A stretch of DNA of 63,999 nucleotides, filler included, from Circinaria calcarea (taxonomy: Eukaryota): assembly GCA_051942165.1 (NCBI GenBank). It is 6 parts of 6 records of this genome, joined end to end, with 100 filler letters (N's around TTAATTAATTAA, not from the genome) between each part and the next. Parts side by side here need not be neighbours in the genome. Positions count along the whole stretch, not along the records: positions 1 to 10,620 come from JAVECS010000784.1; 5 more parts are not named here. The stretch is one strand, 5' to 3'. This document shows positions 1-15,025 of the stretch, one piece after another (the stretch's first letter is position 1; each line of letters opens with the position of its first letter). The position numbers and the translations under genes are program-made. The notes beneath the pieces were generated by a model. It was not told the DNA's origin and did no database searches. It saw nothing but the letters and a program-made list of their open reading frames with translations.

Positions 1-2083
1 TGGTGGAGAAATACTTTGTACTGTTCTAGGAGCCGCCACTTGGGTGCCCAATTCCGAAATTAGAGGCTTTCGGGGGAGATTGGCGAGAAGGGTCGAAGAT
101 GATTCGAGGGATTCAATCGCAAAGGACAAAAACGCAATAGTCTTGCTATTTACACCCAAAGTCCACCGATACTCCGATAGTCTGGTGCGGTAAAAGTCCA
201 CTTCCTCTTGACAAGGGGCAGTTGCGAGGAGCAAGCAGCCAAAGGTGCTGATCAGGGCAAAGTTCACTTTGGAAGGAAAGTACCAGAACGAGTTCAAGTG
301 CTCGGACCGTAAGCGATTTACAAAGTCCATGGCGGAGATAAGTCGGGTTTTGGCGGCGGATCGACAGATATGAGTCAAGTATGGATCTCCATTGCTTGCT
401 TCTAGTGATCGAATGATACAGCGGTGGAGAGTTATCTCGGTTGCAAAATATGCCAAGTGTAGATATCCTTTGGTCGCGTTATTCCTGTATCAAAGGGTAA
501 AATAGAAAGAATGCTTACCTGTTGAGGAAGGCTTGCCTGTCGTAGCATTATCCATTTTGAGATCCAAGGGCAACTTGGAGAACCAGTCTTTGAGCCTTAT
601 CTGTACAGGCTTTGCCCTCTCCAGAATCAGCCGCGTGCCACCGGGTCCGGCATCATCCACTTCTTGCATCGCTTGCAAAGTGAAAAATGTATCGAGAACC
701 GTCGAGAGTATCTCTGTCAAATTGACCATCTTCTTCATCAATGCTCGTCCTCTGTCAAGCTCAACAACTGACACAGCTGCATTAGATATTCCATTAGACT
801 CGTCAAAATCCTCATCTGAAAGACCCTGGACGGCCCAATTGTTTGGAAAGATCGCGGATGGACGCCCATGCACCAGAGAGCACCATTTGTCTTGCATGTA
901 CAACGCCCATGCCAACCGTTTCCTCAATCCTTTTTCAGCGGGGGACAACAGCCAAGACGAACAATCAAGGTGCAGCCCAAGCTCATAAGCAATGGCAACA
1001 AGCTGTGTGTTCAGGGTTTTGGAATCAATGTTCGGTCGCTGCATCAGTAAAAGGCCAGCTTGAACAGTCGATAACGTTGGATTGCATATCGAATCCCCAA
1101 ACAGCCTCAGTGCAAGTCCTTCCACTTGGGAGGCATCTGGAATTGGAGATGCTGTCCTGGAATTTTCTTGGACCAGCAACGGAGTGGCGAGCGCATAGAT
1201 AGCGGCAAGTAAGGTAGGGTCCATGATCATTCTTTTCCCACCGCTACATTCCGAAAACACATCCTGCTGGACAATGGGAAAATTGGGATGAATGGTGGTC
1301 AGGTAGCGACGAAGGAGTGATGTACTGTGTGCTCCAACAAGTCTCTCCAATGTCCTTGACGCGATTGAGTTCACGCCCGTTGTCCCTTCAGTATTTGTTC
1401 CTCGATCAGAGAAAAAGGCAGTTCGCGCGTCTGCCTTCCGGTAAACATCATTCGGGCTCACGTTTCCATTCATAGCAGCCAAGTCCAGTAACATGGGTTC
1501 AAACTCAGTGGTGGGCCCTATATGTGTCCCGTAAAGTTCCGATCGCGAGACATCAGCATCCTTTGATCTGTTCTCCGAAGACTCGCTTTCGACTTTGGGC
1601 GGCGGGGTGCTGTTATATACATGGGAATCTAGTGCCGCGTCGGTCATCCCTTGAGGAAAAGATGCAATTGATCTGCCCTCGACCTATCGTCAGCATGTAT
1701 AGGTGGACAGCCTTGCCAGCGAGTGGATCATTAACTGACCTCCGCTTCGCGGCGTCGGGCTCCGTAGCTTCAGCGTCTGTCTTTCTCTTCCTGGGCTGGG
1801 GATCTTCGATAAAGGTACAATCCTGTCCGTGGACTCCACATGCCGCGCAACTCTTCTGCCCTTCGCCAGTTACACATTTGCTCTTGCGTTTCCGACAAGC
1901 GTCACAAGGGCGCTCCCGACGCCCTCGAGGAATAGTAGAGTTCTTGCTAGCCATTCCCGAATTTGGACTGATCGCGTGCCTCTTGACTGGAGTTGGCCGA
2001 ACGGGACCTGTGACAGGAGCTGAGAAGGGGAGAACGTCGATGGGGAAAGTAACTGGAACGACGGCCGTTGCCATACTGAGCAT
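1..2083 (-). CDS. Zn(II)2Cys6 transcription factor with fungal-specific TF domain, DAL81/TamA-like; 3' end runs off the window
   Basis: Binuclear cluster CDACRKRKSKC-x7-CAAC-x6-C; middle homology region (ELGLHLDCSSW...RKRLAWALYMQDKWCSLVHGRP); later exon GYLHLAYFATEITLHRCIIRSL. Introns inferred at 1739-1673 and 518-468. Start is ATG 2083 or 2074. Confidence 0.85.
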
Positions 2084-2969
2084 CACGGCGGGAGAAGTAG
2101 GTGCTGGAATTTTAGTAGAGCTGCATCTATTTCGGCTGGTTCCTGCGCCTCAATCACGTCGTCCTATCCCAAGGCAGATATGTTGGTATTTTCTCAAAGT
2201 GGAAGTTCGAACAGACGTTCAAAGTGCGTGCTGCTTGATAGTTGACTGATTGCTATCGCGTAACAGCTGCAGCAGCATCATGACGCTCGGATGTGGAGAA
2301 GAATGGACAGGCCGATAACTCATGCGGGGAGGGAGATAAATCCTCAGGGCTGGTGTTGGCAGTATCTGACTGTCGCTGAGTGTGTATCTCTCCATGTACC
2401 TGCCAACGCCAGTCATCGGCAGCGTGAAGATACAGGGCCGCAGCTAGACCGCGACACGCAGGCATACTGAGATCGGGACGGCTTCCGCGACGTGGCACTC
2501 GTAGTCTCGTGGGGGGACAAGTTGGATTTATCGTGGTCACGGAATGCTGTGATTGCTCAGTGCGAGCGATCACTGGAGATTCCAAACGTAACATAAACCG
2601 AGTACGTGCTTAGCGAGAATCTGAGGCTGGATATTGCCTGTGGATTCGGCCGGGGGGGAAGATAAGGAAGAGATAAGCGTTTTCGGTGTCAAATTCTTCA
2701 GTGTACAAGTCTACATATCAGTTTCTGCGACTTTGTACCTGACCTTTGCCCAGCCTGTCGGGAATCATCACGCGATATTTCATCATTGCTTGTGTAACGG
2801 TAAAAGCTTGGCTGAGATGTCCAGTACCATACAGGTGCAAGATTATTGATTAGTGGATATGCAATCTACTCCCACGCGTGCAGCAAGACCATCCGATCCA
2901 GAAGAAATGTTCTGATGATCGTTGCCCACGGCATATATAACTGCGAGAGCATGTGATTGCATCTATCGA

Positions 2970-5018
2970 CTACCGAGGCCATGTCTGGGCCACCTCGATC
3001 AGTGCCTGCAGCAACTCTTGATCCCCTGCATCTAAAGAGACGTTTCGGTGCAGTCCAAAAGGTGCAACGTCTATCGCGCACTTCTGCCTATGCGGTGGTA
3101 GGTGACCTGTCTGAAAATACCTTCGGATATGTCTGGCAGTACAGAGGGAAGGTAATGCCATGGTACAGTGACCGTAGCCCAGCGTTTCCAACACCGTGCT
3201 GCCGGGAAAGAGCTTCGAGGCTCTGAATGCGTATTCTAATGGCGTGACGGGGTCGAAGGATTGACTAACGAAGAGAATAGGATGAGCGGTCTTGGCGCCG
3301 AATGGCCCGGTAAATCGCCATTTGGGGCGAATGGAATAGCCAAGGCATGCCAACTCCCAGAGTGCGAACTTGTCTCCAAATCGCGAACTCCGGCGTCTGA
3401 TCTCTGAGAGTTGATTTCGGAATGCTGCTTGCGTTAATCCTTGTTGATCGTCGCCGTCGGCGCACAGGACACCCAGTGAAGCGCTATAGGGCTCTAGTTC
3501 AAACGAATTCGAAGACGATGAACAGGTAACGTATCCCAGAGACACAGCCAAGGATGTAGCATTACCGTGAGAAAGATCATGCGCCACTTGTGCGATGTGT
3601 GTGAAACTACTGAAAGGGCCATAGTAGCCACTAAACATAGCCGTGACAACATCGCTATGTGTAACAACTAGTGGACCATGTTCTGTAGATGTAGCAAGAG
3701 GTTTGTCCTTGATTTTCTCCAGGATTTCTCCGAGATAAGTATGGATTTGGGGGGGACCTCCGTCTCTGTAGATTGCACACTTCTCTGGACCAGCCTGGTA
3801 ACAACTGACTGTAAAGCTTTTAGTGATCTGGTCAATGTCCTGAAGGTCTCGAGAATAATCCCAGCGAATATAAAGGTAAGGATCAACCACACCGTCGAGG
3901 ACCATTCGACCAACGCGATGTGGTTGCATGGAAGCAAAACTCTCACCGAGGAAGGTACCATACGAGAAACCCCAGAAAAGCAACTTCTCTTCTCCCTTTC
4001 GCCAGGCGGTATCTTCCCGTATCCTCTCAGTGTTTTCATGGTTTGAGTTGTCAGACAACAGCTTCTCTGCAGTCCTCTCTCTCCACTCACCATGTCTCTC
4101 GATAATCTCCACCATGTCTCGAACAACGGATACAGTACTGATATAATGACCAAGATGTTCATTTCCATTGACACGTAAAGCAGGCACAGTAGCGTTTAGC
4201 CCAGAACAACTGAGGCCTATCGCAGATGCTTCTGCCCAGACTCTTTGAAAGGTTGCTTCGGAGTCATGAATAGAAAATCCGGTTGCCCGTTTTTCTATAT
4301 TCCAGGCTTCTCGAGAAAGTCGGCTTTTGAAACATGAGAACCCAGGAGTAGTATTGTTAACGCCGCGCGGGTCAAAGCTTATAAGATCAAAGTATTTCCC
4401 TTCAGATGAGAGCCTGCTCCCGCTTTTAGGACTTGCTGTCATATCTCCATCTACAATGGTTTGAATACTTCTGCCGTACTGGAGTACCAGATAAACTCCT
4501 GAGCCACCAGGCCCACCTGGCTTGATATTAGTTTGGAAGGTTTGATTGGGATGAGGACTTGCCGGGATTCAAAACACTCGCGCCGCCATATCTAGGATCA
4601 GTGATGGGGACCCTGGCCGGCCTTTTGATTATTGCAATGGCCATTTGATCGCCTTGGTTACCACTCGTCCCGTTCCAGTCCACAGGTACTTGAAGCCTGG
4701 CGCACTCATGACTGCCAAAGCACGTGTGATATTGAAGGTCTCCCGATGGCCGTATCTTTAACCGTCAACCATGTGAAATAATCATCATCGGCGTAACCTT
4801 ATGCGTACCTTGTCCCAGTAAAATGCAGCGGCTTCCTCTCCAATAGTGGGGATTTTGCCATGTAGATTTTCATTACTTGAAATCCAGTGCAAAGTTACTA
4901 AACACATAATGGTAGTAAAAAGACAAGCCAGCCTCCGATAAAGCCTGGACAAACACAGAGGCCTATCCTCCAAAACTTCTGATTGCAACATTCTCTTTCC
5001 GGAAGTAATATCAGACAT
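2970..5018 (-). CDS. Alpha/beta hydrolase with TAP-like C-terminal domain (tripeptidyl-aminopeptidase-like), N-terminal membrane anchor
   Basis: Exons about 5018-4809, 4755-4563, 4516-2970. Motifs CARLQVPVDW, NPGGPGGSG, FDPRGV, nucleophile GFSYG, LDGVVD, DPVTPL, GHC. Confidence 0.88.
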
Positions 5019-5604: not shown

Positions 5605-7237
5605 ATGAGCTTCCACCGTTTATGCCGCACCCAATCTCTACGCCATTATACTCTGGGCAGAGGGAATGGAACCAGGCATAGCTCAGGCATCTTACCGCTC
5701 ATTATTTGTAGGAATATGAAGCGCAAAGCGACCAACTTGGAGCCGGCTCCGAAAGCTAAGCGTACAAGAGAGCAAGGAAAAGATTACTGTGATGTCGAAG
5801 CGGTACGGGATGACCGAGGGAACACTGTCTGGCCAGCACCACCCAAGGCCATCCAAGATGCTAGGGCTTTTTTGAAATCCTGGTACGGGGGGTCTGATCC
5901 TGACTACAGATGCTGTGCTCATCAATATGCTATAGCGCTAGTGCACAGGAAAAGACACTCATTGTGCCAGATAAAGACGCAGACGGGTTGAGCAGTGGGG
6001 TTATTATACTACGCACACTTACGACCCTCGGTCTGGAAGCTTCCCAGATCGATGTACACCTAGTGACCAAAGGATCCAACATCCATCAAGAGTCGGAAAG
6101 AAGGGCGATGGAACAAAAGAACCCGAAATATGTGATTGTGGTGGACCAAGGGAGCCGCGCTGGACCTTCTGTTATCGACCGTGCGGATGCATCATCTCTG
6201 ATTATAGATCACCACTTGAGCGACGAATTCCCCCAAAATGCTCTTGTATGAAGGATCATCTACACCCGCCGAGCTCAGCTGATGACTGCTCAGGTTGTCA
6301 GTGGGTGCCATTACCCTCCGGTACCTACATCAGCCCTTCTCACCTACGAGATATGCAAGGCACTACACCCGGATATTCCAAGGGAATGTGCTTATCTCTG
6401 TGCAATTGGTACTCATGGTGATTTGGGAACAACGCTCAAGTGGAAGCCGCCATTCCCAGATATGACGGAGACGTTCAAGACTTATTCAAAGAAGGTCATT
6501 AATGATGCAGTATCACTGATCAATGCCCGTATGTTACCGTCTCAAGCCCTAAGAGCAGTCGCATGCTAACCGTAACATAGCACGACGGACTGCAAGATTT
6601 GACGTGGCTTCAGCTTGGCAAGCTCTTGTTGAGACGAGTAACCCCAAAGAGATTCTCAGTAATAAGCGTTTACTTCAGGCACGGGCTGAGATCAACGAGG
6701 AAGTTGAGAGACAAACTCATACCCCACCCAAATTTAGCAAAGACGGGAAGATTGCCGTCTTACGTATTCACTCTGCGGCGCAAGTTCATCCAGTCATCGC
6801 AACAAGATGGGTGAGTTTCTGCCCTGGAGACAGCGTATTCAGCATCGCTGACAATGGCCTAGGCCGGCCATTTACAATCCAAGGCTCTAGAAATCGTCAT
6901 GGTAGCCAACACCGGCTATTTACCAGGTATGGTTAACTTCTCGTGTCGCATAGCCCGATGCGCCCGCTCACGAGATCCGCCCGTCAACATTATTTCTTCC
7001 CTAAAAGCGGTAGCGGATTTGGACACCACCAACCTCGTTGCACGGATGGGTGAAAGCTTTGCGAGAGGCCACAAAGAGGCTAGTGGGGGTATCATTCCAG
7101 CGGCAGAATTCGAGGAGCTTATGGCATTGATGAAAGTTGGCGAGAAACCGGATCCTACACCAGGGGACGCCGTCAGAGTGAGGAAGACTGTCACGCCCCA
7201 GAAAAATAACTTGATGAACTATTTCAATAAGACCTAG
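5605..7237 (+). CDS. DHH-family phosphoesterase, RecJ-like (DHH plus DHHA1-like domain)
   Basis: Five exons with GT-AG sites: 5605 or 5716-5882, 5936-6245, 6294-6528, 6581-6810, 6863-7237. Motifs DKDADG, VVDQG, IIDHH, GTHGD, INAPRR, NFSCR, RGHKEASGG. Confidence 0.88.
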
Positions 7238-8851: not shown

Positions 8852-10620
8852 ATGTTACTCGAGGCGCTCCGATGGTCGATCGTCTTTCTTGTCATGGGAG
8901 AAGCTGTCTCTGCTTTTGCCATTACTGGTGCTCTCGGCGGTATCAATGTAACAACAGGGCAGAGGCCTTCAAGGCAGGAAATTTCATCTTTTCAGTCCAG
9001 CGGCGGTCCTGCATTTGACCTCTACATTCTCGCTTTCCAACGATTCGTCCAGACAGATCAGACCCAACTGTTATCATATTATCAAGTTGCTGGTGAGTAG
9101 TTCAAATGTCTGTGTATTCGAGGGTACGTCGTCAATACTCTATAGGCATTCATGGATATCCCGCAGTCCCTTGGGATGGTGCCAAAGGGAAAGGCTACAG
9201 TGCTGGATACTGCACTCATGAGTCCGTTCTCTTCCCACCATGGCATCGACCGTACATGGCACTCTATGAAGTATGAGCACTTCTATACACTTTGCAGTCT
9301 TCAGTCTTGTTGATGATCGCAGCAAATTGTATGGAGTTACGCCCAGGAAATTGCAAAGAGATATCCCTCTTCTATTCGTGATAAATATCAAGCCGCGGCT
9401 GAGAAATTAAGGGTGCCATACTGGGACTCTACTACAAGTGCCATGATGCCTGACTTGGTCAATAATCCCTGGATCAGGGTTACGACTCCAAAAGGACTTC
9501 GCACCATAACGAACCCATTATACAACTATACCTTTAGTCCCCAGCCATCGGCATCGGAATTTCCATCTGGAGACGAGGTATTCTTCCTCTCCTGTTATGT
9601 TTCCAATTATCAAATCACATTGTGCAACTTGACCGCAAACTTGTGGAATCCAGGTCAATAATTATTCGCACTGACCTGATCTCAGCTTTCCAGTTACCAT
9701 GCTACCGTCCGAAGTCCAAGCTCCTCTAGCCAAAGCCAACCAGAACTTTCGAACAAGGCTTTGCAGATGAATGGACAAGGGCAAGTTCGTCAACCATTTG
9801 CCATAGGCCTAGCTGATTTTTGTAGGCTGCACGACGGGACCTATCAGTTACTATCATCCGAACCGAATTATGCCATTTTCTCAAATACGGCATACAACGA
9901 TGACGAAAGCTACGGTCACCAAAGCATTGAGAATATACACAACGGCGTCCATGCCTTTGTTGGTGGAATGGGTGGTCACATGTCCGCTGTCCCTTTTTCT
10001 GCATTCGACCCGATTTTCTGGCTTCACCACGCGTACGTCGGTCCCTTCCCGGAAACATAACGCCTGGACTGAGCAGTTATCACAGTAACATCGATCGACT
10101 CTTCGCCATCTGGCAAGCCCTATACCCGGATTCATACGTCACTCCCCAGGTCCCCGGAGCAGGAACCTACACCAATTCCCCCGATGAGTTCGAAGACGTA
10201 AACACAGGTAAACACTCCCCTACCCTCACATTCAATCTCTCCTCTAAACTCAAAACATCATCCAGCTCTCACCCCCTTCCACGCTGACCGTGCCGGTACT
10301 TTTTACACATCCGCTACCGTTCACAGCACCCGCGTCTTCGGCTACACTTACCCCGAACTCGAAGGCGAATGGACCCTAAACTCCACGCAGTTCGCGCAAA
10401 CCCTCCGGGCCAAAGTCAACGCGATTTACAACCCTCAGTCGGCCAACTCCTCGAAGCTTGCCAAACGTGCACCGAATGCAAAAGTGGTGGCCAATGCGGC
10501 CAGTTACCAATGGAGCATTGATATCCGCGCAGATAGGCAAGTTCCCAGCCCCGTTATCTATCTATCTTGAAAATATCCCTTGTCTAATACTTTCACCTAC
10601 ATAATCACTTACCTAATCAC
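8852..10620 (+). CDS. Secreted tyrosinase (type-3 copper protein), multi-exon, 3'-truncated by contig end
   Basis: Hydrophobic signal peptide; CuA region GIHGYP...[20 protein letters not shown]; CuB region [10 protein letters not shown]...GHMS...[21 protein letters not shown]. Confidence 0.92.
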
Positions 10621-10720
10621 NNNNNNNNNNNNNNNNNNNNNNNNNNNNNNNNNNNNNNNNNNNNTTAATTAATTAANNNNNNNNNNNNNNNNNNNNNNNN
10701 NNNNNNNNNNNNNNNNNNNN
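10621..10720. other. Artificial contig linker N44-TTAATTAATTAA-N44
   Basis: Exact 100-nt spacer with a six-frame stop core, identical at five positions. Confidence 0.98.
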
Positions 10721-12450: not shown

Positions 12451-15025
12451 TCAATCCACACACCACATCTGATTATCCGGGGTTTTCTCTACCATGTCCC
12501 TATCCCCGAAGTGGCAGAAGCGCAAGATCCATCTAGCAAAGGTTTTTGCAATCCCGTCCTTTGAATTCTCGGCACCTAAATGCCGCGCCTCAGCGCTGCA
12601 CAAGTCCATCAGCTGGGGGTCTTGTAATGCTGCTTCCGCATATGGTCGACACTTCTCTTCGCCTACCGAATTAAGCAAATCTCCAATAGTTCCTTCGTTA
12701 GTCAAGGCTTGCTGGGCACAGTTTTTGGCTGCGTTATGATGGGTTTGATACCCCGGGGCTAACTTCTGGAAGATGGCATGCCTTTGAGCCTTGACGTAAT
12801 AAGTAGAGCCTTTGCTCTCGGCAATCAGTGCCACGATACCAGTTAAAGTCTGACGAATGTTAAAAAGCCCTAACAGCGAACTCGTCTCGTTGTCGTGTGC
12901 GGCTTGAGCCAGAATTAAGGCCAGCGAGAGCGGACCGTTTAACTTGTGTAGCTCTTCGTTCCATTTCTCTTCGAGTGATAGGGCATACCAATCCTTGTTA
13001 GTGTCCCGAAGCACCATATCATGCACGAAACTATCATCCAAGTTCTCACCGTGTTTTATCAGGTTGGGATGTAAGATATACCCTGGGAGCGAACATAACA
13101 ATCCACGGTTAGTCGGAATCCCAGTCATTTGATGATCTAGCCCTATGGGTCCGGCCCAGTCATCTCTAGGCAGTATTCCTAAGAAAGTCGATGGAGCCCA
13201 GCGGAAGCCGTCCTGGCTTAGTTTTCCTGGGGCCTTGGAGAATACAAGCCCCGTCGGAACCTTAGCCATCAGGGACCAGAAGGTCTGCATTCTTTGTGAG
13301 ATCGGGACCGAAGTAACTTTGGTAATATCTAAACCCACAAGACAGGCAAGACACAGAGCTTCGTCGGTACTGACGCTTACCGATCTGACGCTCAAGGCGG
13401 CGCGGATAGAAGGAATGTCCTGGTTGTAGGTTATATCGAATAGATTATTAACCTTACTTGCTCCATATCTCCCTATTATCGCAAGATCTATTGCGCGAGA
13501 CGCTGAAGAGGGAACTCGGCTTAAGTCAATACTCTTAAAGAGCTCCCCCAGATCCACTGCTTGATCGGCGAATTGGAACCAAACTCTTTTCGCCAATCTA
13601 CCTTCTTGTAATGTCCAGAGTCTTCGCATCCAGCTGCAACAGGAAACTCGCGCGAAGATCTCGATTGGAGAAAGAAAATTGCTGTTAAGCGATCGAAGGT
13701 ATGAATCCAGTACAAGCACACATTTCGCGCGCTCGTAAGGTTCTCTCATCCTATTTAATGCGGCTGTTTGCAGCTCTGGAGGGCGAACGGGGACACAGAT
13801 GGTGTCAATCCAGAATGGCATGCTTTCTTCGTGGTTTGTAACAGGAAGTCTATTGGCTAATGCAGATAGCTCTGATATTAAGCAGCTGTGGAGAGTATTG
13901 TCATCTGGGTTCCCAAGACCTTCCGCCCAAACGTGCGAGATAGCCACGAAGTCTATATCATCTTCTGCATTGCGCAAGGTGAGTGGGTGCATCAGAGGCC
14001 CATCACTGTCGACGGGGTTAATCAAAGGAATCGACCCACTCCTGAGAATACGAGCCAAGGCATCGTGATCCACAACTGCGAGGGAGCAAGTACAGCCGCT
14101 GCGGCTATGGGCGAGCTCGTAAGTAGATGAGTCAATTTGCAATGCAAGGCATTTCTCCGCGAAACAACTGCTGTGATCTTTTCCTAACCTCGGAGCTTGT
14201 AGGTTGCTGTAATAATACAAAACTCCAACGGAATCTGTCTCAATGTCAATTCGAGCAACATCACTTGGACACCAACCATTGCGGCGCAACGATTCAAGGA
14301 CTGGCTGGCCAAGATCTACAACTTTTGGTATTCTCCACCTCTGATCAACAGGCGTTTCGATACCTAAGTGTATATAAACATCCTTAATCGCTTGGTGCAG
14401 GTACTCTCCGAGAGCAGCGATGGCAAGAAATATCCGGGAATCAACTGGATCAGTGTCGTAGATTCCGATCCTTAAGGCAAGGTCTCGGACTTCAAGGATG
14501 CATTGGTAGATATGTGTGCACCTCTCTTTGACAATTTCAATAGCTGACCGGGATGTTGGAAGTCGCCCTATGGACCGTATTAGGCCAAGCGTTAGTATCA
14601 TTCATGTATAACTAGCGAGTCTCCCACATAGCAAATCCACAGCCGTTTCACACACATTCAACACGGGACTTGTCTGCGACAAGGTAGAGTGTCCAATCCT
14701 TCACTAACCGCTCTAGTTGGAAAGTAGTCAGGAATTTTGAGCCCAAGCCGTCCTCGGTGACAAAGCATGCAATATCGAACACAGGACCTAGTGCCTCTTG
14801 TAAGAGTCCAAAGTAAAGCCACGTCTGGATGAATGCTGCCTTTTCAATTGATAAAGGTTCCCTTCCATTGTAAAGGAACGCGATTCGATCATCTGGAAAC
14901 GAGATCTTCCAGCCTTTCCGGTCGGGATATGTGAGGAACGGGCCAGCGTCATACTCCTTGGTGCACACAAAGGGAACCTTGATAGGCGGTAAAGCTGGGT
15001 TACGAGGTAATGGTAGGTGGTCCAT
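12451..15025 (-). CDS. HET-domain (heterokaryon incompatibility-type) protein, about 830 aa
   Basis: Exons 15025-14656 and 14567-12451 splice in frame. HET motifs AISHVWAEGLGN, FWIDTICVP, VLVLD, WMRRLWTLQEG; N-terminal FIQTWLYFGLL block. Confidence 0.85.

What the first reader, a model, noticed from the sequence alone, without database searches (positions are those of the whole stretch)
5716..7237. Catalytically intact RecJ-like DHH enzyme in a fungus
Seen: a five-exon gene encoding the DHH motifs in RecJ order: DKDADG (cf. DxDxDG), VVDQG, IIDHH, GTHGD (cf. GTVAD), INAPRR (cf. LNAAGR), NFSCR and RGHKEASG (cf. GGHxxAAG). Established: RecJ is the bacterial/archaeal 5'-3' ssDNA exonuclease; its best-known eukaryotic relative Cdc45 has degenerate catalytic motifs, and Ppx1/Prune carry a DHHA2 domain instead. 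Inference: this is an active RecJ/NrnA-type nuclease, possibly of old prokaryotic origin and now intron-bearing. I know of no functional characterisation of such a fungal protein, although generic 'DHH phosphoesterase' annotations exist in fungi.
Basis: partly seen in the sequence, partly recalled or inferred. Interest (0 to 1): 0.75.

Follow-up and report, generated by a model that had tools for sequence, protein, structure and literature searches.

The report
Fungal RecJ-like nuclease tied to UV repair
This lichen-fungus gene encodes an unstudied, apparently active relative of the bacterial DNA-trimming enzyme RecJ, found across fungi, whose bacterial counterparts usually sit beside a UV-damage repair gene.

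Summary
Window 5716-7237 (+) is a five-exon gene. Its spliced product (438 aa) is letter for letter a protein predicted from a Circinaria calcarea assembly. An RNA contig from a close relative confirms intron 1. All seven RecJ motifs are present and near-invariant in the family.

The predicted fold (pLDDT 86) is closest to the bacterial RecJ catalytic core (Z 28-29). NrnA-type enzymes score 15-19 and Cdc45 16-23. It is not a RecJ orthologue: it lacks an OB-fold domain and scores 56.7 bits against a 396.9-bit cut-off.

New here:
- The family was found in chytrids, Blastocladiomycota, Basidiomycota and Ascomycota, including Neurospora NCU06018.
- Fungal members carry a basic N-tail and a conserved C-terminal motif resembling a PCNA-interacting (PIP) box.
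- Bacterial homologues (32-40% identical) lie next to the UV-damage endonuclease gene uvdE in 39 of 80 loci. They lie next to an ATP-dependent DNA ligase in 6 of 80, and one is fused to a ligase.
- Fungal sequences form one clade nested among bacterial ones.

Best reading: a nuclear nuclease that trims DNA ends in excision repair, probably downstream of UVDE. Activity, substrate and PCNA binding are untested. I found no paper on the family.

The parts
5716..5882 (+). Exon 1 (residues 1-56, phase 2 end). It includes the basic bipartite-NLS-like stretch KRKATNLEPAPKAKRT (5719-5766) and the family motif WPAP (5830-5841).
   Evidence: The model is disordered over residues 1-19. K2 and R3 are near-invariant, and W39, P40 and A41 are conserved in 42 orthologues.
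5883..5935 (+). Intron 1, 53 nt, GTACGG..TATAG
   Evidence: An RNA contig of run X3 joins 5881 to 5935, skipping 53 nt with GT..AG ends.
5936..6245 (+). Exon 2: the DHH domain core. Motif I DKDADG (5970-5987), KGSNIH (6069-6086), motif II VVDQG (6138-6152), motif III DHH (6207-6215).
   Evidence: Pfam DHH E 6.9e-9. Aligned with RecJ. Conservation.
6246..6293 (+). Intron 2, 48 nt, GTATGA..CTCAG
   Evidence: An in-frame stop follows if it is left unspliced. One RNA-library contig runs through it unspliced, so splicing here rests on protein homology.
6294..6528 (+). Exon 3: end of the DHH domain. Motif IV GTHGDLG (6408-6428) and the start of motif V.
6529..6580 (+). Intron 3, 52 nt, GTATGT..CATAG. 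It splits the Pro codon of motif V, INAPRRT (6519-6591).
   Evidence: The joined product is identical to P0001.
6581..6810 (+). Exon 4: motif V arginines R239/R240, the helical linker, the first strand of the DHHA1-like domain and the family motif AQVHPVIATRW (6778-6810).
6811..6862 (+). Intron 4, 52 nt, GTGAGT..CCTAG
6863..7237 (+). Exon 5: the DHHA1-like domain with motif VI NFSCR (6935-6949) and motif VII RGHKEASGG (7064-7090). A disordered Lys-rich tail follows (7160-7234), ending in the PIP-box-like motif QKNNLMNYF (7199-7225). Stop codon at 7235-7237.

Best explanation
The gene encodes a nuclear, metal-dependent DHH/DHHA1 phosphodiesterase built like the catalytic core of bacterial RecJ, without RecJ's OB-fold and C-terminal domains. 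It most likely trims single-stranded DNA from a 5'-phosphorylated end during excision repair. The bacterial family it descends from is a partner of the UV-damage endonuclease UvdE and of ATP-dependent DNA ligase. UvdE nicks immediately 5' of the lesion and leaves a 5'-phosphate. The RecJ-like enzyme is proposed to remove the damaged 5' stretch, a polymerase fills the gap, and a ligase seals it. In fungi the enzyme gained a basic N-terminal tail (probably for nuclear import) and a conserved C-terminal PIP-like motif, which would hold it on the PCNA clamp at the repair patch. Shown here: gene structure, intact motifs, fold, family range, bacterial gene neighbourhood and fusion, and the conserved tail. 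Inferred: catalytic activity, DNA as substrate, 5'-3' polarity, PCNA binding, and any role downstream of fungal UVDE.
For: Catalytic equipment.
- The residues that bind the two metals in D. radiodurans RecJ are D79, D81, D83, D135, H159 and D223. The general base is H160 and the 5'-phosphate pocket and leaving-group residues are R280, S371, R373 and H397 (PMC4846377, passages read).
- They align with D68, D70, D72, D126, H148, D202, H149, R240, S341, R343 and H384 here.
- These positions are near-invariant among rows that cover them, in 341 eukaryote-type and 92 bacterial rows.

Fold and sequence.
- The AlphaFold model has pLDDT 86.3 and pTM 0.84.
- VIA-align gives bacterial RecJ cores Z 28.4-29.2 (332-348 residues aligned, 18-21% identity; a manganese-bound core crystal, 1ir6, gives 27.2). 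Archaeal RecJ, GAN and HAN give 19.2-24.4, Cdc45 16.4-22.8 and NrnA, Rv2837c and GdpP 15.4-19.0.
- By sequence, the only solved relatives are RecJ-type: 4 of 5 hits and 9 of 9.
- In NCBIfam the best of 4 hits, all RecJ-type models, is TIGR00644 recJ at E 1.3e-15.

Link to repair in bacteria.
- In 80 bacterial loci holding a homologue, a uvdE gene lies beside it in 39, and within 500 bp of the aligned segments in 38. Among the 58 loci with at least 1.5 kb on both sides, the count is 32.
- All 16 of 16 tested neighbours pass Pfam UvdE at E 1e-37 to 1e-68.
- Three arrangements occur (divergent, upstream co-directional, downstream co-directional) across Myxococcota, Acidobacteriota, Cyanobacteriota, Planctomycetota and Actinomycetota.
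- Of 10 sampled genomes where the two genes are not adjacent, 8 hold uvdE elsewhere, against 4 of 14 control genomes.
- An ATP-dependent DNA ligase lies beside the gene in 6 of 80 loci. In one of these only a DDE transposase separates them.
- One 919-aa protein fuses the ligase to this domain.
- One locus has ruvA-ruvB-DHH with an overlapping stop and start.
- The same genomes keep a true RecJ (5 of 5), so this is an extra, specialised paralogue.

Fungal additions.
- Of 224 eukaryote-type members with a full tail, 198 carry Q-x-x-(x)-[LIMV]-x-x-aromatic-aromatic within the last 30 residues.
- Of those 198, 10 have canonical spacing, for example QKRLESFF in Sorochytrium, and 188 have one extra residue, as here.
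- 206 of the 224 carry the hydrophobic-x-x-aromatic-aromatic core.
- The motif sits at the end of a disordered Lys-rich tail. Bacterial homologues lack both tails.

The gene is transcribed and spliced in a close relative.
Against: - No activity was measured.
- RecJ's OB-fold domain, which gives ssDNA grip and processivity, is absent.
- RecJ Y80, which stacks on the +1 base, is Lys here. The equivalents of R109 and Y114 depend on the alignment: K101 and H106, but L98 and S103. DNA-over-RNA preference and the complete 5'-phosphate pocket are therefore not established.
- An archaeal DHH-type PAP phosphatase (8a8k) is nearly as close structurally (Z 27.1).
- The uvdE link is bacterial only and is carried over 32-40% identity. 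None of 80 fungal-type metagenome loci (791,735 bases) has uvdE or a ligase within the held flanks, and the window has none either. Operons are not expected in fungi.
- 41 of 80 bacterial loci have no adjacent uvdE, and 2 of 10 sampled genomes have none at all.
- In this species the tail motif is not a canonical PIP box, because Q sits one residue too far. Neurospora has no Q (ENTITNYF) and chytrids have L-x-x-F-G-F. PCNA binding could not be tested.
- A UV dimer at the very 5' end might block a one-nucleotide exonuclease.
- From recall: fission yeast runs the UVDE pathway with FEN1 and Exo1, and as far as I remember it has no member of this family.
Confidence: 0.5

Rival explanations
1. It is a DNA-end-processing nuclease that works with PCNA or ligase in some other pathway, such as base excision repair (5'-dRP or blocked-end removal), Okazaki-flap or gap processing, or nick and break sealing. 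It would have no special tie to UVDE in fungi.
For: The same catalytic, fold and tail evidence applies. Some bacterial homologues pair with a ligase (6 of 80 loci and one fusion) or with ruvAB rather than uvdE. 41 of 80 loci show no adjacent uvdE. UvdE itself also cuts at abasic sites and other lesions (PMC6264785, passages read). RecJ digests DNA with abasic sites (PMC4846377).
Against: uvdE is by far the commonest neighbour (39 of 80), and 8 of 10 sampled non-adjacent genomes still hold it. Among named sources of hits I saw no budding yeast (only the best 120 of each list were visible). Saccharomycotina is also the group reported to have lost UVDE (PMC7145719).
Confidence: 0.25
2. It is a small-substrate phosphoesterase of the NrnA/pAp-phosphatase kind, clearing pAp, nanoRNA or dinucleotides, as some automatic annotations state.
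For: JGI names some members 'nanoRNase/pAp phosphatase (c-di-AMP/oligoRNAs hydrolase)'. The second-best structural match is a DHH-type PAP phosphatase (8a8k, Z 27.1, 302 of 316 residues aligned). There is no OB fold. RecJ's ribose-excluding tyrosine is not clearly kept.
Against: No NrnA-type model appears among the NCBIfam hits at E <= 0.01; all 4 hits for the fungal protein are RecJ-type. NrnA, Rv2837c and GdpP structures score Z 15-19 against 28-29 for RecJ. A neighbourhood of uvdE, ligase or ruvAB and a ligase fusion fit DNA work, not nucleotide scavenging. A nuclear-import-like tail and a PIP-like tail conserved in 198 of 224 members are hard to explain for a metabolite phosphatase. Other JGI members are named 'single-stranded DNA-specific DHH superfamily exonuclease'.
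Confidence: 0.15
3. It is a non-catalytic scaffold, like Cdc45, that only binds DNA or partner proteins.
For: Cdc45 shares the fold (Z 16.4-22.8) and is the known eukaryotic RecJ relative.
Against: Cdc45 lacks three metal ligands and the 5'-phosphate pocket (PMC4846377). Here every one of these positions is kept and near-invariant from chytrids to ascomycetes and in bacteria. No Pfam CDC45 hit appeared at E <= 1.
Confidence: 0.03

Closest known systems
Bacterial RecJ (5'-3' ssDNA exonuclease; TIGR00644 / COG0608), e.g. D. radiodurans 5f56, T. thermophilus 2zxo, S. aureus 8y30
   Same: All seven motifs align: DxDxDG, D, DHH, GTxxD, NAxxR, SxR and GHxxAxG. So does the GVxGIVASR-like strand motif, which is AQVHPVIATRW here. 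It is the best structural match, Z 28.4-29.2 over about 340 residues covering RecJ residues about 29-419, and the best sequence match in PDB and NCBIfam.
   Different: Only 18-22% identical. It scores 56.7 bits against the 396.9-bit cut-off. There is no OB-fold or C-terminal domain. It lacks the long inserts RecJ has between motifs III-IV and IV-V. Y80 is replaced by Lys. Bacteria that carry the family also carry a true RecJ (5 of 5). Fungal members add an NLS-like N-tail and a PIP-like C-tail.
Uncharacterised bacterial 'DHH family' proteins next to uvdE or ATP-dependent ligase (Myxococcota, Acidobacteriota, Cyanobacteriota, Armatimonadota, Actinomycetota and others; loci L001-L080)
   Same: This is the same family. 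Members are 32-40% identical over residues about 38-404. They share family-specific motifs: WPAP, [RK]GExxH, AQVHPLVAxRW, ANxGYLPGRVNF and GHxxATGG. The fungal clade nests among them.
   Different: The bacterial proteins are 337-370 aa with neither tail. About half have His instead of the first Asp of motif I (44 H against 37 D). Their genes are linked to uvdE or ligase, whereas the fungal genes are not. I found no publication on them.
Archaeal RecJ-like nucleases (GAN/RecJ-Cdc45, RecJ2, HAN) and eukaryotic Cdc45
   Same: DHH plus DHHA1-type two-lobe fold. Z is 19.2-24.4 for the archaeal proteins and 16.4-22.8 for Cdc45. NCBIfam RecJ_archaeal matches at E 1.8e-9.
   Different: There is no CID or GINS-binding insert. 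The match is lower than to bacterial RecJ. Cdc45 has lost its catalytic residues (PMC4846377), whereas this protein keeps them.
NrnA / Rv2837c / GdpP / DhhP and the archaeal DHH-type PAP phosphatase (8a8k)
   Same: Same superfamily and similar size, with no OB fold. PAP phosphatase 8a8k gives Z 27.1.
   Different: NrnA-type structures give Z 15.4-19.0. No NrnA-type NCBIfam model appears at E <= 0.01. The gene context and tails point to DNA.
PIP-box proteins of the PCNA clamp (FEN1, DNA ligase I, Pol32 and others; consensus Q-x-x-[LIM]-x-x-[FY]-[FY], recalled)
   Same: An extreme C-terminal motif follows a disordered basic linker. Spacing is canonical in some members: QKRLESFF, QSNLTGYF and QKRLDQFF.
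   Different: In this protein and 188 of 224 members the Gln is one residue further out (Q-K-N-x-L-x-N-Y-F). Some members lack the Gln. Binding is untested.

Membership tests
DHH/DHHA1 phosphoesterase superfamily | DHH-domain motifs I-IV (DxD, D, DHH, D) and a Pfam DHH match | tested here: met
   Exon 2 scores 36.5 bits against the 28.1 cut-off. 4 of 5 full-length orthologues hit DHH at E about 1e-9. The window protein as a whole gave no DHH row in that scan. The motifs are invariant.
DHH/DHHA1 phosphoesterase superfamily | DHHA1-type C-terminal lobe (GGH/GHxxAxG motif) rather than DHHA2 | tested here: met
   RGHKEASGG aligns with RecJ GGHxxAAG. The fold aligns through residue 406 with the RecJ DHHA1 lobe. 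Pfam DHHA1 and DHHA2 models themselves gave no hit at E <= 1.
RecJ proper (TIGR00644) | Score above the curated equivalog cut-off | tested here: not met
   56.7 bits against 396.9. The match covers only residues 44-200.
RecJ proper (TIGR00644) | Seven RecJ signature motifs with metal ligands and catalytic His | tested here: met
   alignment with five true RecJ sequences. Residue list from PMC4846377. Conservation.
RecJ proper (TIGR00644) | OB-fold ssDNA-binding domain after the catalytic core | tested here: not met
   After residue about 410 there is only a 25-residue disordered tail. Structural alignments stop at RecJ residue about 419 of about 700.
RecJ proper (TIGR00644) | Terminal 5'-phosphate pocket (R109, R280, S371, R373 in DrRecJ) | tested here: inconclusive
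   R240, S341 and R343 align with R280, S371 and R373. The R109 equivalent is K101 but L98.
RecJ proper (TIGR00644) | 5'-3' exonuclease activity on ssDNA | not testable with these tools
   This needs biochemistry.
NrnA / pAp phosphatase (COG0618-type) | Sequence-model or closest-fold membership | tested here: inconclusive
   No NrnA-type NCBIfam row at E <= 0.01. NrnA-type structures give Z 15.4-19.0, but a DHH-type PAP phosphatase gives Z 27.1.
Cdc45 | Degenerate catalytic motifs; CDC45 Pfam family | tested here: not met
   The catalytic residues are all present. No CDC45 row at E <= 1. Z 16.4-22.8, below RecJ.
Ppx1 / Prune (DHH + DHHA2) | DHHA2 C-terminal domain | tested here: not met
   No DHHA2 row at E <= 1 in 5 proteins. 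The C-lobe carries DHHA1-type motifs VI and VII.
PIP-box PCNA ligands | Q-x-x-[LIM]-x-x-[FY]-[FY] near a terminus in a disordered region | tested here: inconclusive
   The window protein has QKNNLMNYF, with Q displaced by one residue. The strict form occurs in 10 of 224 members, the +1 form in 188 and the h-x-x-aromatic-aromatic core in 206. The tail is disordered.
PIP-box PCNA ligands | Binding to PCNA | not tested
   No fungal PCNA sequence could be reached with the session's tools, so no complex prediction was run.
uvdE/ligase-linked bacterial DHH family (unnamed) | Full-length homology with the family-specific motifs, and phylogenetic inclusion | tested here: met
   32-40% identity over residues 38-404. 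Shared motifs. The fungal clade lies inside a starred set with 16 bacterial rows.
uvdE/ligase-linked bacterial DHH family (unnamed) | Gene adjacency to uvdE or ligase | tested here: not met
   None in the window and none in 80 fungal-type loci. In bacteria the counts are 39 of 80 and 6 of 80.

The most novel reading that the evidence does not exclude
UvdE plus this RecJ-like nuclease, sometimes with an ATP-dependent ligase, forms a compact bacterial 'nick, trim, seal' excision-repair cassette that has gone unnoticed. The nuclease entered an early fungal ancestor from bacteria, gained introns, a nuclear-import tail and a PCNA-docking tail, and is the dedicated lesion-removing nuclease of the UVDE (alternative excision repair) pathway in filamentous fungi. 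That step is currently assigned only to FEN1 and Exo1, from fission-yeast work.
Probability: 0.3. Interest if true: 0.8.

Novelty: new variant of a known kind. Interest (0 to 1): 0.62.

Why it matters
Eukaryotes are generally thought to keep RecJ only as the inactive replisome subunit Cdc45. Here is a catalytically intact RecJ-core enzyme conserved at 65-80% identity across three ascomycete classes and present from chytrids to mushrooms, including model organisms (Neurospora NCU06018, Zymoseptoria, Fusarium). I found no paper on it.

The bacterial neighbourhood data give it a concrete, testable job next to the UV-damage endonuclease. That enzyme determines UV tolerance in many fungi, and its loss makes the bat white-nose pathogen UV-hypersensitive (PMC5750222).

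If the link holds, it would fill in the poorly defined excision step of alternative excision repair. It would also define a new bacterial repair module and add a PCNA client. Knockout strains and simple nuclease assays would settle the question quickly.

Tried and rejected
- **First gene model.** It used a TACGGG donor for intron 1 and gave 435 aa. I replaced it with GTACGG..TATAG, which gives 438 aa, matches P0001 and is confirmed by RNA.
- **Pfam on the whole window protein.** It gave no DHH row, although exon 2 alone passes. I take this as a filter effect, because 4 of 5 orthologues hit DHH.
- **Whole-genome search of the window's own assembly.** No genome is held. Paralogues (Cdc45, Ppx1), UVDE and PCNA of this fungus therefore could not be looked up.
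- **The listing of cluster members for names of distant hits.** I obtained taxon names from the search for homologous proteins and from the record titles of genome loci.
- **The search for related loci with the 20-sequence alignment.** It failed for want of a conserved stretch. A 7-sequence alignment worked.
- **Possible DHH-UvdE fusion in Actinomycetota.** Long ORFs in L058 and L073 suggested one. I rejected it. In L073 the DHH and UvdE parts lie in different reading frames. In both loci the UvdE match begins only at residue 234 (L058) or 301 (L073) of the long ORF.
- **Other fused domains.** 18 longer family members were scanned. Only the ligase fusion P0223 showed one.
- **Synteny with uvdE or ligase in fungi.** None in the window and none in 80 fungal-type metagenome loci.
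- **Non-fungal eukaryotic members.** The most divergent eukaryote-type row, P0264, is from a basidiomycete. Every named eukaryotic source seen was fungal, but only the best 120 rows of each list carry names, so absence elsewhere is not shown.
- **ESM Atlas.** It only repeated 'DHH, Ascomycota' and one archaeal DHH cluster.
- **Earlier findings of this scan.** Nothing was on record for this sequence.
- **Sequencing runs.** Only small shares of the words were held (0.05-0.10). Apart from the intron 1 joint, the contigs say nothing about expression level. Parts without RNA cover (6371 onward) are not evidence of anything.
- **Complex prediction with PCNA.** Not run, because no fungal PCNA sequence was reachable and an archaeal stand-in would not be a fair test.
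- **Complex prediction of the bacterial DHH-UvdE pair.** Not run, because I do not claim that they bind.
- **Literature.** The search was swamped by general fungal papers and is uninformative.
Full report
**1. The observation**

Window 5716-7237 on the + strand holds a five-exon gene. The exons are 5716-5882, 5936-6245, 6294-6528, 6581-6810 and 6863-7237. The introns are 53, 48, 52 and 52 nt, all with GT..AG ends.

My first model put intron 1 one base off. The corrected splice gives 438 residues, identical to P0001. NCBI labels P0001 a hypothetical protein of a Circinaria calcarea (lichen-forming ascomycete) metagenome-assembled genome.

The neighbouring genes are typically fungal: a Zn2Cys6/Fungal_trans regulator, an alpha/beta hydrolase, a tyrosinase and a HET-domain protein.

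One contig from a metatranscriptome run, about 95% identical to the window, joins 5881 to 5935 across exactly 53 nt with GT..AG ends. This confirms intron 1 in RNA of a close relative. A second contig from the same RNA library runs unspliced through intron 2. The rest of the gene had no RNA cover.

**2. What the protein is**

*Sequence searches*
- Exon 2 alone passes Pfam DHH.
- Against solved structures the only meaningful hits are RecJ proteins. T. thermophilus RecJ scores E 3.2e-7 with the single sequence. All 9 hits with a 42-sequence family profile are bacterial or archaeal RecJ or GAN.
- In NCBIfam all 4 hits are RecJ-type models. The best is TIGR00644 recJ at E 1.3e-15, but with 56.7 bits against a cut-off of 396.9.

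*Structure*
- The AlphaFold2 model built on 42 orthologues is confident (pLDDT 86.3, pTM 0.84). Residues 1-19 and 414-438 are disordered.
- Foldseek and VIA-align both put RecJ-type proteins on top.

| Structural match | Z |
|---|---|
| Bacterial RecJ catalytic cores (D. radiodurans, T. thermophilus, S. aureus; 332-348 residues aligned, RecJ residues about 29-419) | 28.4-29.2 |
| T. thermophilus RecJ core crystal bound to manganese (1ir6) | 27.2 |
| Archaeal DHH-type PAP phosphatase (8a8k) | 27.1 |
| Archaeal RecJ2, GAN, P. furiosus RecJ, HAN | 19.2-24.4 |
| Cdc45 | 16.4-22.8 |
| NrnA, Rv2837c, TM1595, GdpP, DhhP | 15.4-19.0 |

*Motif alignment*
- A multiple alignment with five true RecJ sequences taken from bacterial genomes lines up all seven motifs. 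It also aligns the strand motif AQVHPVIATRW with RecJ's GVIGIVASR.
- I used the residue roles established for D. radiodurans RecJ (PMC4846377, passages read). The metal ligands, the catalytic His, R280, S371, R373 and H397 all have counterparts: D68, D70, D72, D126, H148, D202, H149, R240, S341, R343 and H384.
- These positions are near-invariant among the rows that cover them, in 341 eukaryote-type and 92 bacterial sequences.

*Differences from RecJ*
- There is no OB-fold or later domain.
- It lacks RecJ's long inserts between motifs III-IV and IV-V.
- Y80 is replaced by Lys.
- The equivalents of R109 and Y114 are K101 and H106 in the multiple alignment but L98 and S103 in the pairwise HMMER alignment. 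I leave that open.

The protein is therefore a minimal RecJ-core enzyme of its own family. It is not a RecJ orthologue, not Cdc45 (whose catalytic residues are lost) and not Ppx1/Prune (no DHHA2 domain).

**3. Range and origin of the family**

An exhaustive HMMER search over 1.84 billion representatives found 845 relatives at E <= 0.001 and 152 at E <= 1e-30.

Every named eukaryotic source I saw is fungal:
- Lecanoromycetes, Leotiomycetes, Eurotiomycetes, Sordariomycetes (including Neurospora crassa NCU06018 and Fusarium) and Dothideomycetes (Zymoseptoria, Alternaria).
- Basidiomycota (Neolentinus, Fibroporia, Tulasnella, Kwoniella, Sistotremastrum).
- Chytridiomycota (Spizellomyces, Borealophlyctis) and Blastocladiomycota (Sorochytrium).

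Only the best 120 rows of each list carry names, so absence from yeasts or other eukaryotes is not shown. I saw none.

Orthologues in three ascomycete classes are 65-80% identical to the window protein.

Relatives of 337-370 aa, 32-40% identical over residues 38-404, are bacterial. A scan of one genome per prokaryotic species found 84, of which 80 loci were kept. They lie in Myxococcota, Acidobacteriota, Cyanobacteriota, Chloroflexota, Armatimonadota, Planctomycetota, Actinomycetota and others.

I built a quick maximum-likelihood tree of 94 rows. Of the 137 rows assembled, 43 were dropped for redundancy and the rest used.
- All 36 eukaryote-type rows fall in one clade (SH-aLRT 100), and its internal order follows fungal phylogeny.
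- This clade sits inside a starred set (95) with 16 bacterial rows.
- The root on the RecJ outgroup is weakly supported (22), and one outgroup row is on a very long branch.

A bacterial origin in an early fungus is therefore the likely reading, not a demonstrated one. I name no donor.

**4. Bacterial context, the main functional clue**

- A Pfam scan of neighbours in nine loci showed DUF3140-uvdE-DHH in two cyanobacteria, ligase upstream in one locus, and ruvA-ruvB-DHH with overlapping stop and start in one.
- I searched all 80 loci with one cyanobacterial UvdE (E <= 1e-8). A uvdE-like gene lies beside the DHH gene in 39, and within 500 bp of the aligned segments in 38. Among the 58 loci with at least 1.5 kb on both sides, 32 have it.
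- All 16 of 16 sampled neighbours, from six phyla, pass Pfam UvdE at E 1e-37 to 1e-68.
- The pair occurs in three arrangements. It is divergent in Myxococcota, Acidobacteriota and Sorangium. uvdE is upstream on the same strand in cyanobacteria and Gaiellaceae, and downstream on the same strand in Solirubrobacterales and a Phycisphaeraceae genome. This argues for repeated selection rather than one inherited accident.
- Of 10 sampled genomes where the genes are not adjacent, 8 carry uvdE elsewhere, against 4 of 14 control genomes.
- An ATP-dependent DNA ligase with all three Pfam ligase domains lies directly upstream in 6 of 80 loci. In one of them a DDE transposase has been inserted between the two genes.
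- One 919-aa protein fuses such a ligase (residues 1-540) to this domain (residues 578-911).
- All 5 of 5 sampled genomes also encode a true RecJ above the cut-off. The family is therefore an additional, specialised nuclease.

**5. Fungal-specific features**

- Bacterial members end shortly after the last helix.
- Fungal members carry a basic N-terminus. Here it is MKRKATNLEPAPKAKRT, of bipartite-NLS type, and K2 and R3 are near-invariant.
- They also carry a disordered Lys-rich tail ending in a conserved short motif. I examined the 224 eukaryote-type sequences that have at least 35 residues after motif VII.

| Tail motif within the last 30 residues | Members of 224 |
|---|---|
| Canonical PIP spacing Q-x-x-[LIMV]-x-x-aromatic-aromatic (QKRLESFF, QSNLTGYF, QKRLDQFF) | 10 |
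| Same, with the Gln one residue further out (QKNNLMNYF here; consensus Q-K-N-T-L-x-N-Y-F) | 188 |
| Hydrophobic-x-x-aromatic-aromatic core, with or without the Gln | 206 |

- Exceptions are Neurospora (ENTITNYF) and chytrids (L-x-x-F-G-F).
- The position, the disorder, the flanking basic residues and the canonical form in early-branching lineages make a PCNA-docking motif the best guess.
- The PIP consensus and examples such as Pol32 and FEN1 are from my recall, not from a call. I could not test binding because no fungal PCNA sequence was reachable.

**6. Mechanism proposed**

UvdE/UVDE cuts immediately 5' of UV dimers and several other lesions, leaving a 3'-OH and a 5'-phosphate (PMC6264785, passages read). 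The step after that is described only as flap creation and excision, followed by filling and ligation (PMC7145719).

An enzyme with RecJ's two-metal site and most of its 5'-phosphate pocket is suited to enter at that 5'-phosphate and remove the damaged stretch. Without the OB fold it should be distributive and make short patches.

In bacteria, uvdE, this nuclease and sometimes a ligase would form a compact nick-trim-seal set. In fungi the nuclease would be imported into the nucleus and held on PCNA beside the gap-filling polymerase.

Every step after 'the residues are there' is inference. A dimer at the extreme 5' end could be a problem for a mononucleotide exonuclease. The substrate could equally be a displaced flap or another 5'-blocked end.

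**7. Evidence against, and rivals**

- The fungal gene is not linked to UVDE or ligase, either in the window or in 80 fungal-type metagenome loci.
- 41 of 80 bacterial loci lack an adjacent uvdE, and 2 of 10 sampled genomes lack it altogether.
- The PAP phosphatase fold is nearly as close as RecJ's, and some automatic annotations call members nanoRNase/pAp phosphatase.
- RNA-versus-DNA preference is open.

| Reading | Weight |
|---|---|
| UVDE/PCNA-linked DNA trimming | 0.5 |
| Other DNA-end processing | 0.25 |
| Small-substrate phosphoesterase | 0.15 |
| Inactive scaffold | 0.03 |

**8. Literature**

Seven full-text searches found no paper on a fungal RecJ-like enzyme, on NCU06018 (0 papers), or on a uvdE-DHH association. 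One search was swamped by general fungal papers and is uninformative.

- I read passages only, not whole papers, of PMC4846377, PMC6264785, PMC10140301, PMC7145719 and PMC5750222.
- PMC10140301 describes ligase fusions with a metallo-beta-lactamase nuclease. It contains no occurrence of the terms DHH or RecJ.
- Subscription journals and supplements were not searched, so transcriptome or knockout tables mentioning these genes may exist.

**9. Verdict**

The added findings are a pan-fungal family, a PIP-like tail, bacterial linkage to uvdE and ligase, and a nested fungal clade. Together they turn a generic 'DHH phosphoesterase' into a specific, cheaply testable candidate for the excision step of the UVDE pathway. 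I rate it a new variant of a known kind, with interest 0.62.

Noticed in passing
L017:4455-4799 and L026:4365-4709 (cyanobacterial loci): A DUF3140 gene (Pfam E about 1e-36) sits directly upstream of uvdE and the DHH gene on the same strand in two cyanobacteria. It may be a third member of the same repair unit.
   Followed up: partly
L038:4146-6963: In a Vulcanimicrobiota genome the DHH gene follows ruvA and ruvB, and its start overlaps the ruvB stop. This suggests co-transcription with Holliday-junction branch-migration genes. The genome holds uvdE elsewhere.
   Followed up: partly
L034:5090-6936: In an Abditibacterium genome a 266-aa PIN-domain protein gene overlaps the start of the DHH gene.
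   Followed up: no
P0223 (919 aa, source unnamed): This is a natural fusion of a three-domain ATP-dependent DNA ligase with the DHH/RecJ-like domain. In the tree it groups with an Acidobacteriota member whose gene lies beside a separate ligase (L029).
   Followed up: partly
Alignment A1, N-termini of P0033, P0065, P0070, P0082, P0089: Some fungal orthologues are annotated with 30-80 extra N-terminal residues rich in Arg, Ser and Leu, upstream of the conserved MKRKA start. These could be mitochondrial presequences from an alternative start, or annotation artefacts.
   Followed up: no
window 10621-53557: The window contains 440 N, the first at 10621. These are assembly gaps. One interrupts the region just downstream of the tyrosinase-like gene (9317-10570).
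   Followed up: no
window 490-2149 (-), 2970-4568 (-), 9317-10570 (+), 12451-14601 (-): The neighbours of the gene are a Zn2Cys6/Fungal_trans transcription factor, a TAP-like alpha/beta hydrolase, a tyrosinase and a HET-domain protein. None is repair-related.
   Followed up: partly
P0264 and P0366 (Sistotremastrum, Obba): A very divergent second lineage of the family occurs in some Agaricomycetes (30% identity, long branch). It may be a paralogue with relaxed or changed function.
   Followed up: partly
Bacterial family alignment, motif I: The first Asp of motif I is His in 44 and Asp in 37 of 81 bacterial rows that cover it (H-x-D-x-D-G against D-x-D-x-D-G). Fungi almost always have Asp. This may mean a difference in metal site B.
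   Followed up: no
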